Assembly: GCF_013167455.1 (NCBI RefSeq) | Contig: NZ_CP038328.1 | From: Escherichia coli O157:H7 | GTDB taxonomy: Bacteria; Pseudomonadota; Gammaproteobacteria; Enterobacterales; Enterobacteriaceae | Length of the DNA stretch: 64,000 bases | Strand: one strand, 5' to 3' | Shown here: positions 15,001 to 18,000 of the stretch, piece after piece | Position numbering within the stretch: the first letter of the stretch is position 1 | Layout of the letters: every line of letters starts with the position of its first letter | Position numbers: made by a program

Positions 15001-18000
15001 GTTTCTTATTGACGGTCTGCGTGATTTCATTACTGACATCCGTGATGGACGTTCTGATTTCCGCCAGGTCAGGCGCAAGCTGACCGTTATCAATCTGAGT
15101 CCACAACTCCTGAGCCAGATGGGTTTTCCCTATCTCTCCTTTGAAAAAATCCAGGTAACCTTCCGCATCATCGCTCGCCCGACCGACAGCCTCCACGAAT
15201 GCCGATTTGCCAACAGTATTCACACTGCGGATATAAAAATAATAATCATGGCCCGGTTTGATATTGATACTGGCAGCTATCCAGTACAGCGCCGAGCCAA
15301 GATAGCGGGCTGCGGTTTCAACCTGCCTGATATCCGCAATCCGCTTTTCCGAGAACCAGAACTCAAACTGTACCGTCGGGTCATAAACGGCAAGATGCGG
15401 CGTGGCGGTTATCTGAAAATAGCCCGGCGTCAGCTCAATCCGCGACGGTGCTGCCGGTGCGGCAATCCGGAAGGTGGTGGTGGCAGGTTCACCCTGCTGG
15501 CCATAGCTGTTTATCGCCCGCACCGTCAGGGTGTATTCCCCGAGCGGCAGGCCGCTGAAACGGTGCTCCGTGTCTGCGGTGATGGCGGTGGTCACCAGTC
15601 TGGCATCCGTTCCCTTACCACTGGTCAGGCGCAGACTGAAGCGCACGCCCTTCACCACCCGCGGCGTGTCCCATTTAGCCTGCGCCAGATACTGGCCGTC
15701 AGCTGCACTCACCTCCACCGTCAGGTGCTGTACTGCCGGTGGGATGACGCTGTTCAGGGAACCTGACTGCGGCTCAAAGCGGGCACCGTTATCCACGATG
15801 GCTTCTTTTTCCGGTACGTGCTGCACCGCCGTGATGGCAAAGGTGCCGTCCGTGTTTTCCCGGACGGAGACACAGCGGAACAGGCGACGGCGCAGTGACG
15901 GCAGGGAGAGTCCCCACACCCCGTATGTCTCCACACCATCAGGCAGGGTACTGACCTGTATCCGGTCCGGCGCGGGGTGTGCGGTGATGTCCACACTCAC
16001 CGGCTTACCGCTGCCGTTAATCAGGTTCACCGTGGCGGCACCGGTCTCCGGCAGTGTCACCTCACGGTCCAGCGTCAGGGTGCGGCTGGCGGCATCGATG
16101 GACAGGACACGTCCGCCGGTCATGGTCCCGGCATAGTCGTTATCACAGATTTCAATAATGTCACCGGGTGTGTGACGCAGCCCCTGTGACCCGAGCGTGA
16201 AATCCACCGTCTGCGTTTCCAGCAGTCCGGTCTTTATCACCCACAGCCCGGCACGGTGGGCCTGACCGCGACTGGTGCAGCCGAACGCATCCATCTTCAG
16301 CAGGTTGCGTCCGTAGCGCAGTATGGCTTCCGGGTCTTCCACCAGTTCCGTGGAGGTCTGCCAGCCGTTCTGCGGGTCGGTGTAATTCACCTCCACCGCC
16401 GTGTGGCGGTCCTTCAGGGCGCTGAAGCTGTAGCGAAACCCCACGCCGTTATCATCCACCACCACATCACTGCTGGTGTAGGCCACACCACATCTGACGG
16501 ACGGTCCTGCACAAACGTCAGCGTCTGCCCGTTCCATACCGGCATACAGCGCATCGCCGAGCAGAAATCACTGAGAACGTCCCACGCCTTACGCTGTTGT
16601 GACAGGTACGCATTGAAAGTCATCCGCGGCTCTGTGCCCCCGAAACCATCCGGGACCGTCTGGTCGCAGTACTGCGCAATGGCATACAGCGCCCACTTGT
16701 CCACATCCGCCGCCCCCAGGCGTTTTCCCATTCCGTAGCGCGGGTGGGTCAGCATGTCCCACAGGCACCAGGCAGGGTTGTTGCTGTATGCCGGTTTCAG
16801 GCTGCCGTCCCAGATGCCGCTGTACGTGCGTTTTTCCGGGTCATAGTTTGACGGTACCTGGATGATGCGACCGCGGATATGGTAGTTCACCGTCATCTGC
16901 TGACCGCCAAACTGCTCCGCATCCACCTGCAGCCCCACAATCGCCGTGTTCGGGTAGCACTGTTTCACATCGATGATTTCGGTGTATGACGACCAGAGCG
17001 TCTTATTCTGCAGCTGGTCCGAGGTGCTGTCCGCTGTCTCCCGGACCATCCGGATGTTAAAGGGCCGCTCAGGCAGATTATCCAGAATCACCGACGCCAG
17101 AAACTGCGAGGTGGTCTTGCCGTTAATGGTGACATCCTTTTCCGTCACCCAGTTACCGTTACGCTGCAACTGAATCAGCAGTCGGACAGAAGAGTGATTA
17201 CGGTCGCCCTTTGAGGTGGTCTCCAACAGTGACTGCACCCCGAAGGTGACCCGCAGGCGGTCAATGTTCGCGGACGTAATGGTGCGCGTCACCGGTTTTG
17301 CCTTCGTCACTTCCACGCCCAGTCCGGTTTCAGCTCCGGAGGACTCAAAGCCTTCCGGTGGTGTCTGCTCCTGCTCCCCGGCACGCCAGACCGCGGTCAC
17401 ACCGTGTATCACGGGATTGCCGTCCGTGTCCGTCAGTGGGGTTTTGTTCACCAGAATACTCTGCAGTCCCTTCACCGGACCTTCTATCGGTCCCTCACCA
17501 ATCGCATCAATCACACTCATCATCTGCGTGGATTTGAGATTATCCTTCGCCTCACGAGGCGTGTGTGCCTTACCGCCACCTTTTCCCATACAGCCTTCCC
17601 CTGAATAAATTAACCGCCACTTGCCATTCCGTACAGAAGTCGGATATCCTTCGCCCGAAAAGCATGAAACACATTTCTGCCATGCTAAAGAGAAACCCCG
17701 GTATCAGCAGATACCGGGGTTTTCTTTCATGCCCACCGATAATCCTGTTGGTTAAAACCGGTAATGGCATAAAAATTCTGAATATCTTCACATTTTCACA
17801 CACTGACTGTGGCGCTTATAATTTCGCTGCGTTAGTGTTTTTTTGCCCGAGTAACAAAAACAACTCCTTAACATTGATCTTCATTTGTCTGTCCCCGCAG
17901 CTCCGCGATCACTGCGGGATTTTTTTATGTTTTATCCCTGTCGCCCGACAACCACGACCGTTCCGCCCCCGCCTTCATCACGGGTGCTGATGTCCTGGGA

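What the first reader, a model, noticed from the sequence alone, without database searches (positions are those of the whole stretch)
17590..17931. 340-bp non-coding insert with two strong hairpins between tail genes I and J
Lambda I and J are nearly contiguous, but here 340 bp separate them. The interval contains perfect hairpins (ccccggtatc-agca-gataccgggg; ccccgcagc...gctgcgggg followed by a T-run) and a consensus tataat on the plus strand, with no convincing ORF. It could be a small RNA or moron remnant.
Basis: seen in the sequence. Interest (0 to 1): 0.35.

Follow-up and report, generated by a model that had tools for sequence, protein, structure and literature searches.

The report
Known prophage small RNA gene PasB
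The 342-bp gap between tail genes I and J of this E. coli O157:H7 prophage holds the already published Hfq-dependent small RNA gene PasB, with its own promoter and terminator and read opposite to the tail genes, plus a separate terminator-like hairpin cassette, so the finding is real but not new.

Summary
A 342-bp gap (17590-17931) separates lambda-type tail genes I and J, both on the minus strand; the gap in lambda is 60 bp.

The right half is the small RNA gene PasB. The 83-nt PasB of EPEC E2348/69 (Pearl Mizrahi et al. 2021) maps to window 17844-17926 (+) with 82/83 identity. Its published northern probe matches 17899-17921 exactly. PasB lies in the same place, I-J gap and antisense to the tail genes, in E2348/69.

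The plus strand has a near-consensus sigma-70 promoter (TTCACA-16-TATAAT, 17795-17822) and an intrinsic terminator (17894-17926).

More divergent homologues occupy the I-J gap of many Stx and lambdoid phages. They include Sakai Sp15, Sp14 and Sp11, where they are the Hfq-bound ~85-nt EcOnc22/23/24 of Tree et al. 2014; the probe match shows this. Some phages carry 2-4 such units in tandem.

The left half (17590-17765) is a separate, invariant cassette found in about 27% of complete E. coli genomes. It holds the very stable hairpin at 17696-17719, flanked by A- and T-tracts, which is most likely a bidirectional terminator.

Interest is low. PasB's targets and physiological role are still unpublished.

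The parts
17932..18612 (-). Tail assembly gene I (context; its stop codon lies 5 nt from the PasB 3' end, so the two are convergent)
   Evidence: ORF. Pfam Lambda_tail_I, E 2.3e-16. PGAP annotates 'tail assembly protein' in the identical locus of strain ECP19-598.
14117..17589 (-). Tail tip gene J (context), split by a frameshift into ORFs 16414..17589 and 14117..16537
   Evidence: GpJ domains spread over both ORFs. PGAP marks gpJ 'frameshifted' in the 100%-identical locus.
17795..17822 (+). PasB sigma-70 promoter: -35 TTCACA (17795-17800), 16-bp spacer, -10 TATAAT (17817-17822). An A/T-rich UP-like tract lies just upstream. The predicted start is near G17829.
   Evidence: 11 of 12 matches. 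The -35 is invariant and the -10 is conserved across about 20 divergent family representatives.
17844..17926 (+). PasB sRNA as published (83 nt). The primary transcript may start about 15 nt earlier, near 17829.
   Evidence: 82/83 identity to NC_011601.1 1466343..1466261 (-), with the single mismatch at PasB position 27 = window 17870. The published northern probe matches 17899-17921 exactly on the minus strand.
17850..17864 (+). A-R-N repeat tract (AGU AAC AAA AAC AAC), a candidate Hfq distal-face binding site
   Evidence: Runs of 3 or more ARN triplets occur at the equivalent place in 17 of 20 family representatives although the sequence differs; shuffles seldom match them (18 of 20 representatives have an empirical shuffle P of about 0.05 or less; the 17 with runs of 3 or more all do).
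17864..17884 (+). Conserved single-stranded core CUCCUU ... UUGAUCUUCAU, the candidate seed (the first part is anti-Shine-Dalgarno-like)
   Evidence: These are the most conserved transcribed positions outside the terminator. The Zhu et al. 2026 preprint also places the PasB seed just upstream of the terminator.
17894..17926 (+). PasB intrinsic terminator: 7-bp stem, 11-nt loop, then A and U7
   Evidence: CTGCGGGATTTTTT is conserved in the family, and some array units use a different compensated stem CUCCCGU/ACGGGAG.
17590..17765 (.). Left module: an invariant 176-bp cassette between the J start and the PasB promoter. E2348/69 and most Stx phages lack it.
   Evidence: no similarity to the E2348/69 spacer. 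Present at 99% identity or more in 1445 of 5426 E. coli genomes. Present or absent as a whole in IMG/VR loci.
17696..17719 (.). Bidirectional terminator-like hairpin CCCCGGTATC-AGCA-GATACCGGGG, with AAAGAGAAA upstream and TTTTCTTTC downstream
   Evidence: -24.1 kcal/mol (+) and -25.4 kcal/mol (-), z about -8. The flanking tracts give a U-rich tail on both strands. The simple scan did not list it.
17621..17650 (+). Weak promoter-like site TTGCCA-18-TATCCT. If active it would give a plus-strand RNA of about 70 nt ending at the hairpin (unproven).
   Evidence: 9 of 12. Fold of 17655-17732 (+).

Best explanation
The gap holds two independent modules.

(1) Window 17785-17926 (+) is the gene for PasB. 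PasB is a prophage-encoded, Hfq-dependent, base-pairing small RNA. It is transcribed in the lysogen from its own near-consensus sigma-70 promoter, in the direction opposite to the tail operon. It stops at its own intrinsic terminator 5 nt from the stop codon of gene I. In other words it is an sRNA 'moron' in the I-J junction.

The RNA has the sequence make-up of an Hfq sRNA: a 3' hairpin with a U7 tail (proximal face of Hfq), a 5' A-R-N repeat tract (distal face), and between them a conserved single-stranded core, CUCCUU...UUGAUCUUCAU, that most likely acts as the seed on mRNAs in trans.

(2) Window 17590-17765 is a separate, invariant cassette. Its centre is a very stable hairpin flanked by A- and T-tracts. 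It most likely works as a bidirectional intrinsic terminator. It would stop non-antiterminated transcription from running from the I side into J, and antisense transcription from the J side from running into the PasB promoter. Q-modified late transcription would ignore it.

Shown here or in print: sequence identity, position, orientation, promoter and terminator motifs, family conservation, and expression, size and Hfq dependence of the E2348/69 and Sakai copies.

Inferred: expression of this copy, the faces of Hfq used, the seed, and the terminator function of the left hairpin.
For: Identity:
- PasB (Table S6 of PMC8550237: NC_011601.1 minus strand 1466343..1466261, 83 nt, between E2348C_1436 and E2348C_1437) aligns to window 17844-17926 with one mismatch.
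- Its northern probe matches the window once, exactly, with 0 matches expected by chance.
- E2348C_1436 and E2348C_1437 are the tail assembly protein I and gpJ.

Published experiments:
- A northern blot of the predicted size and Hfq-dependent stability.
- RNA level down log2 6.8 and 2.4 in the hfq deletion strain in the two growth conditions.
- 37 RIL-seq partners.

Anatomy:
- Promoter with 11 of 12 matches and a terminator.

Family:
- Homologues of 74-82% identity sit in the same gap in Stx and lambdoid phages.
- The promoter, the ARN tract, the CUCCUU and AAUCUUC core and the terminator are conserved.
- The Sakai Sp15/Sp14/Sp11 copies are EcOnc22/23/24: Hfq-CRAC peaks, a ~85-nt northern band, destabilised without Hfq. 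The probe maps to them.

Left module:
- Hairpin z about -8 on both strands.
- The other spacer type also carries a hairpin, CAGGCA(C/T)C...G(G/A)TGCCTG, at the same place. It shows one compensatory C-G to T-A change and a T-run on the tail-gene strand.
Against: - No expression data exist for this strain or for this exact allele (A instead of C at PasB position 27).
- The published 5' end (17844) lies 22 nt downstream of the -10 element, too far for a start site. Either the RNA is processed or the RNA-seq boundary is approximate. The promoter predicts about 98 nt, not 83.
- The folding energy of the PasB body is unremarkable (z -0.8 to -1.1).
- Rfam 15 has no matching family.
- PasB's targets and physiological role are not published; the 2026 preprint says the function is not elucidated.
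- The left hairpin was not flagged by the simple terminator scan, and its termination activity is untested.
Confidence: 0.9

Rival explanations
1. PasB acts mainly, or also, in cis. It is fully complementary to the I-J intercistronic stretch of the late tail mRNA, and its promoter fires head-on into the tail operon. It could therefore damp leaky or late expression of J and of the downstream lom, tail-fibre and effector cargo, by duplex formation and RNase III cleavage or by transcriptional interference.
For: The geometry is fixed in every genome examined: the RNA always lies antisense in the I-J gap, with its 3' end 5 nt from the I stop. The position is conserved even where the sequence has diverged to about 74%. 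Phages with 2-4 tandem units keep all of them in this gap and orientation.
Against: RIL-seq in E2348/69 recovered trans partners from the core and accessory genome. No data on J expression exist. Conservation of position can also reflect a permissive insertion site between genes of an antiterminated operon.
Confidence: 0.2
2. The left module (17590-17765) is a second small-RNA gene in tandem with PasB. It would give a plus-strand RNA of about 70 nt from the weak promoter at 17621-17650, with a 5' stem-loop (GCAUG...CAUGC) and the 17696-17719 hairpin plus UUUUCUUUC as its terminator.
For: A promoter-like site with 9 of 12 matches. The predicted 78-nt fold has two hairpins, z -7.8. Other phages put 2-4 sRNA units in tandem in this same gap. 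The cassette is invariant in 1445 genomes.
Against: The -10 element is poor (TATCCT). The cassette shows no detectable similarity to PasB-like units. It has no variants, so there is no comparative evidence. No strain carrying it has published sRNA mapping that I could find. The hairpin is equally good as a minus-strand terminator.
Confidence: 0.2
3. The gap is inert spacer or a decayed moron remnant with no transcript.
For: The prophage is partly decayed: J is frameshifted. Nothing is annotated in the gap in RefSeq genomes.
Against: The near-identical sequence is a northern-validated, Hfq-dependent RNA in E2348/69. The promoter and terminator are intact here. The promoter, ARN tract, core and terminator are conserved across many divergent phages.
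Confidence: 0.04
4. The conserved core encodes a small protein on the tail-gene strand, antisense to PasB: 17816..17884 minus strand, MKINVKELFLLLGQKNTNAAKL.
For: The ORF has a plausible upstream GGGGA. Several differences between classes are synonymous in this frame, including the PasB position-27 SNP.
Against: The start codon is ACG in one large class. Lengths (16 to 39 aa) and C-terminal sequences are unrelated between classes. Only the first roughly 9 codons, which coincide with the sRNA core, are conserved.
Confidence: 0.03

Closest known systems
PasB (pathogenicity-associated sRNA B) of EPEC O127:H6 E2348/69 prophage PP6 (Pearl Mizrahi et al., Sci Adv 2021, PMC8550237; distribution in Zhu, Shabalina and Storz, bioRxiv 2026, 10.64898/2026.05.13.724894)
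   Same: 82 of 83 nt identical. Same promoter and terminator. Same position between tail genes I and J and same antisense orientation. The northern probe matches exactly.
   Different: One SNP, at PasB position 27 (A here, C in E2348/69), which is the position the preprint gives for the PasB/PasB-2 difference. The spacer towards J is a different, longer cassette with another hairpin. The host is O157:H7 and the prophage is of the ompW-integrated, nleA-carrying Sp9 type.
EcOnc22/EcOnc23/EcOnc24 of EHEC O157:H7 Sakai prophages Sp15, Sp14 and Sp11 (Tree et al., Mol Cell 2014, PMC4104026, Table S2)
   Same: Same I-J gap, same strand relative to the tail genes, and same promoter, ARN tract, core and terminator architecture. 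Hfq-bound, ~85 nt, and destabilised without Hfq.
   Different: About 75% identical, with a 6-nt shorter 5' region and different variable segments. Neither paper that I read links them by name to PasB.
AgvB and AsxR anti-sRNAs (Rfam RF02702, RF02703)
   Same: Prophage-encoded, Hfq-binding, with an ARN motif in the 5' part and an intrinsic terminator. They are expressed from lysogens.
   Different: They lie at the PR' moron site next to the lysis genes, not in the tail region, and are 51-60 nt long. Their Rfam models do not match this gap, whereas an AgvB-family hit lies elsewhere in the window (39591-39650). PasB has no shown sponge activity.
Phage 'morons' (Juhala et al. 2000, as cited)
   Same: An autonomous promoter-gene-terminator unit inserted between two genes of the antiterminated late operon and expressed from the repressed prophage.
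   Different: The cargo is an RNA rather than a protein, and it points against the operon.

Membership tests
PasB sRNA | Sequence match to the 83-nt PasB of E2348/69 | tested here: met
   82/83 identity at window 17844-17926 (+). In the alignment the promoter core from the -35 to the published 5' end is identical to E2348/69, and the A/T-rich tract upstream of the -35 differs at a few positions.
PasB sRNA | Hybridises to the published northern probe AATCCCGCAGTGATCGCGGAGCT | tested here: met
   One exact match, at 17899-17921 on the minus strand; 0 matches in 100 shuffles.
PasB sRNA | Lies between tail genes I and J of a lambdoid prophage, antisense to them | tested here: met
PasB sRNA | Own promoter and Rho-independent terminator | tested here: met
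   (promoter 11 of 12; terminator at 17902-17918 followed by a T-run).
PasB sRNA | Expressed as an RNA of about 83 nt whose stability depends on Hfq | not testable with these tools
   Shown for E2348/69 and for the Sakai homologues. No data exist for this strain.
Hfq class II-type sRNA (ARN tract plus U-rich 3' end) | (ARN)n tract of 3 or more triplets together with a terminator U-tail | tested here: met
   Five triplets at 17850-17864 and U7 at 17920-17926. The tract is conserved in 17 of 20 family representatives.
Hfq class II-type sRNA (ARN tract plus U-rich 3' end) | Binding to the distal and proximal faces of Hfq | not testable with these tools
   This needs Hfq face mutants or gel-shift assays.
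AgvB / AsxR anti-sRNAs (Rfam RF02702, RF02703) | Match to the covariance model | tested here: not met
   No hit in 16500-19000 at E up to 1. At gathering threshold the only AgvB hit in the window is at 39591-39650.
Intrinsic (Rho-independent) terminator, bidirectional: left hairpin | G+C-rich stem-loop followed by a U-tract on each strand | tested here: inconclusive
   The stem is very stable (z about -8), with UUUUCUUUC on the plus strand and UUUCUCUUU on the minus strand. The consensus scan did not list it, and activity is untested.

The most novel reading that the evidence does not exclude
The I-J junction of lambdoid phages is a dedicated slot for a diversifying family of Hfq-binding sRNAs (PasB and EcOnc22-24). 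The family keeps its promoter, ARN tract, CUCCUU/AAUCUUC core and terminator, but varies the segments in between. In some phages it is amplified to arrays of 2-4 units.

Because every unit is antisense to the late tail mRNA, the family may act both in trans on host mRNAs and in cis on J and cargo expression. In this window, the invariant left cassette could be a further, unrelated sRNA unit of such an array.

The tandem arrays, the PasB to EcOnc22-24 equivalence and any cis role are not in the papers I could read.
Probability: 0.3. Interest if true: 0.45.

Novelty: already known. Interest (0 to 1): 0.15.

Why it matters
For this window it matters little. The element is a published sRNA, and the scan has correctly rediscovered it from sequence alone.

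It is useful for annotation. RefSeq leaves this block unannotated in about 1,600 complete E. coli genomes, and Rfam has no PasB family.

The side results could help whoever works out PasB's still unknown function. EcOnc22-24 belong to the PasB family. The family has a conserved ARN tract and an anti-Shine-Dalgarno-like core. Some phages carry tandem arrays of these units. These results would also help in asking why phages keep sRNA genes precisely in the I-J junction.

Tried and rejected
(1) My first recollection was that this was AgvB. That was rejected. AgvB lies at the PR' moron site and is 51-60 nt long, and its Rfam model does not hit here.

(2) Rfam 15 at a permissive threshold gave only chance snoRNA hits inside J.

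(3) Small ORFs in the gap, including the 66/77-aa ORF annotated as hypothetical in phage ASU11 and the 22-aa antisense ORF, were rejected. They run through the hairpins, overlap the J start, or are not conserved as proteins.

(4) RNAalifold on the first 11-sequence alignment failed because the left arm of the terminator was misaligned. I made no covariation claim from it.

(5) I first tried to map the EcOnc22-24 peaks by estimating the shift between the old and new Sakai coordinates (about +137 to +146 at AgvB1, and 99-227 at Sp17). The exact probe match superseded this.

(6) I searched for partial or divergent relatives of the left cassette. There are none: it is present or absent as a whole and invariant. 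Short resemblances to array spacers (CACATTTCTGC, CCACCGATA) are below BLAST significance and were not used.

(7) A full-text search for the hairpin and probe sequences found no paper.

(8) I did not extract the list of PasB's RIL-seq partners.

(9) I did not run the genome-contig scan for taxonomic range, because the verdict does not depend on it.
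Full report
**What is there.** The window region 14.1-23.5 kb carries a lambda-type tail module on the minus strand.
- The genes are the tape measure, M, L, K (JAB plus NlpC/P60), I (17932-18612; Pfam Lambda_tail_I) and J (start at 17589; GpJ domains).
- J is split by a frameshift into ORFs 16414..17589 and 14117..16537. NCBI marks it 'frameshifted' in the 100%-identical locus of O157:H7 strain ECP19-598.
- Downstream lie lom, the tail-fibre genes and nleA, the arrangement of the ompW-integrated Sp9-type prophage.
- I and J are separated by 342 bp (17590-17931). In lambda the same gap is 60 bp.

**Check of the observation.** Both hairpins, the TATAAT and the lack of an ORF are real.
- Hairpin 1 is a perfect 10-bp stem with a 4-nt loop at 17696-17719. 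It is flanked by AAAGAGAAA and TTTTCTTTC. Folded on either strand it gives -24 to -25 kcal/mol, z about -8.
It is followed by A and T7 on the plus strand only.
- TATAAT (17817-17822) pairs with TTCACA (17795-17800) at 16 bp, 11 of 12 matches to consensus.

**Identification.** Rfam has nothing here. My first recollection, AgvB, was wrong: AgvB sits at the PR' moron site and is 51-60 nt long.
- A literature search led to the Pas sRNAs of EPEC E2348/69.
- Table S6 of Pearl Mizrahi et al. 2021 gives PasB as NC_011601.1 minus strand 1466343..1466261, 83 nt, in prophage PP6 between E2348C_1436 and E2348C_1437. It is antisense to both genes, and the northern probe is AATCCCGCAGTGATCGCGGAGCT.
- That probe matches the window once, exactly, at 17899-17921 on the minus strand.
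- E2348C_1436 and E2348C_1437 are the tail assembly protein I and gpJ.
- The 83-nt PasB maps to window 17844-17926 (+) with a single mismatch at PasB position 27 (window 17870: A here, C in E2348/69). The 2026 preprint names this same position as the PasB/PasB-2 difference.
- The right half of the finding is therefore the PasB gene.

**What is published on PasB.**
- A northern band of the predicted size and Hfq-dependent stability.
- Higher expression under the 'non-activating' growth condition.
- RNA level down log2 6.8 and 2.4 in the hfq deletion strain, and 37 RIL-seq partners from the core and accessory genome.
- PasB is the Pas sRNA most often found alone and outside EPEC/EHEC. [quoted passage not shown]
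- The preprint proposes a seed just upstream of the terminator.

**Anatomy and family.**
- The block is common. The whole 342 bp occurs in 1444 of 5426 complete E. coli genomes, and the PasB part in 1611. It is unannotated in all the records listed by the searches.
- In the phage collection the PasB half has 147 hits, most at 74-82% identity, always in the I-J gap and antisense.
- An IMG/VR scan gave more than 120 further loci with 48 distinct units.
- Across about 20 representative variants the following are conserved: the -35 TTCACATTT, the -10, an initial GCGUUA, a U-run, an A-rich tract, CUCCUU, (U/G)AAUCUUC(A/G)U, and the terminator with U6-7. The segments between them vary.
- The A-rich tract is a run of A-R-N triplets, five in the window at 17850-17864. 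Runs of three or more are present in 17 of 20 representatives. Shuffled sequences seldom reach a run as long as the observed one: the empirical shuffle P is about 0.05 or less for 18 of 20 representatives, including all 17 with runs of three or more.
- An ARN tract plus a U-rich 3' end is the sequence signature of sRNAs that use both the distal and proximal faces of Hfq. That assignment is an inference from established Hfq biology, not a test.
- CUCCUU is complementary to a Shine-Dalgarno sequence, so translational repression at ribosome binding sites is the most likely mode of action. This too is inferred.

**Link to older EHEC data.**
- Tree et al. 2014 list EcOnc22 (Sp15), EcOnc23 (Sp14) and EcOnc24 (Sp11) as homologous Hfq-CRAC peaks. 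EcOnc22 gives a ~85-nt northern band and is destabilised without Hfq.
- All three peaks fall in I-J gaps on the strand opposite to the tail genes.
- Those gaps hold PasB-like units.
- The first 23 nt of the published EcOnc22/23/24 probe match the minus strand of exactly those units.
- Neither the 2021 paper nor the 2026 preprint mentions this equivalence, and a 2021 review lists the EcOnc22 targets as unknown.

**An open detail: the 5' end.** The published 5' end (17844) is 22 nt past the -10 element. The promoter predicts a start near G17829 and an RNA of about 98 nt. The conserved GCGUUA and U-run just after the -10 argue that they are transcribed. In Sp15 the promoter-to-terminator length (88-91 nt by my count of the sequence) fits the ~85-nt band. 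Either PasB is 5'-processed or the RNA-seq boundary is approximate. The folding energy of the PasB body is ordinary (z -0.8 to -1.1). The case for the gene rests on identity, signals and conservation, not on structure.

**The left half.**
- Window 17590-17765 has no counterpart in E2348/69 or in most Stx phages. Those have a shorter spacer of about 75 bp.
- The cassette is invariant wherever present, and the genome counts show it essentially always with PasB.
- The alternative spacer also carries a hairpin at the same place, CAGGCA(C/T)C...G(G/A)TGCCTG. It shows a compensatory C-G to T-A change between phages and a T-run on the tail-gene strand.
- The common denominator is therefore an intrinsic terminator between the PasB promoter and J acting on the tail-gene strand. 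The window's version also has a good T-tract on the plus strand.
- I read it as an insulating, bidirectional terminator that antiterminated late transcription would ignore. This is inferred, and the simple scan did not list it.
- A weaker alternative is a second plus-strand sRNA of about 70 nt from the 9-of-12 promoter-like site at 17621-17650. It gains some plausibility from the tandem arrays described next.

**Seen in passing.** In 12 of 133 loci with a hit to the unit profile, the I-J gap holds 2-4 PasB-like units in tandem, about 225-230 bp apart, each with its own promoter and terminator. In L044, for example, four units fill a 920-bp gap between the J-like and I-like ORFs. The preprint reports no tandem copies.

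**Rejected readings.**
- Inert spacer: the near-identical sequence is a validated RNA and its signals are intact.
- A small protein antisense to PasB: the start codon is missing in one class, and the lengths and C-termini are unrelated.
- AgvB or AsxR membership: the covariance models do not match.

**Verdict.** The element is the already described sRNA PasB plus an uncharacterised terminator-like cassette. Novelty: already known. Interest: low.

Noticed in passing
window 14117-17589 (-): Tail tip gene J is frameshifted. ORFs 16414..17589 and 14117..16537 overlap by 124 nt and together span 3473 nt, against 3474 nt for the intact E2348/69 gene. PGAP marks it 'frameshifted' in the identical locus, so this prophage is probably defective for tail assembly.
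   Followed up: partly
L044 7625-8429; L062 688-1495; L063 10117-10924; L061 323-1128; L128 4705-5512; L057 8174-8782: Some IMG/VR lambdoid phages carry 2-4 tandem PasB-like sRNA units, about 225-230 bp apart, each with its own promoter and terminator, filling an I-J gap of up to 920 bp. The two PasB papers I read do not describe this.
   Followed up: partly
L010 875-897, L011 806-828, L012 856-878 (Sakai Sp15, Sp14, Sp11): The northern probe for EcOnc22/23/24 (Tree et al. 2014) maps to PasB-like units in the I-J gaps of three Sakai prophages. These Hfq-bound ~85-nt RNAs are therefore PasB-family members, a link made by neither the PasB papers I read nor the 2021 review that lists EcOnc22.
   Followed up: yes
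window 39591-39860: A convergent pair of known prophage sRNAs lies elsewhere in the same window: an AgvB-family hit (39591-39650 +, 56.6 bits, just above the gathering score) and STnc100 (39652-39860 -, 175 bits). Two tRNA genes lie just beyond, at 39973-40202 (-). The pair has the same arrangement as Sakai Sp10 and Sp17.
   Followed up: no
window 45329-45445 and 46142-46291 (-): Rfam hits to the ALIL pseudoknot (IS3-family frameshift element) and to the sok antitoxin RNA. These imply an insertion sequence and a hok/sok-type module in the window.
   Followed up: no
L139 748-1372 (Sakai Sp9): Sakai Sp9, the nleA prophage of the same type as the window, has lost the 3' part of L and all of K and I. 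It keeps a PasB-like unit with a shortened terminator directly upstream of J, and it lacks the window's left cassette.
   Followed up: partly
L008 (NZ_CP066753.1), between gpJ JG531_RS13120 and tail assembly protein JG531_RS13110: Locus tag RS13115 is missing exactly at the I-J gap. This suggests that a feature once called there was withdrawn on re-annotation. Phage ASU11 annotates a 66-aa hypothetical protein across the left cassette and the J start, which is probably spurious.
   Followed up: no
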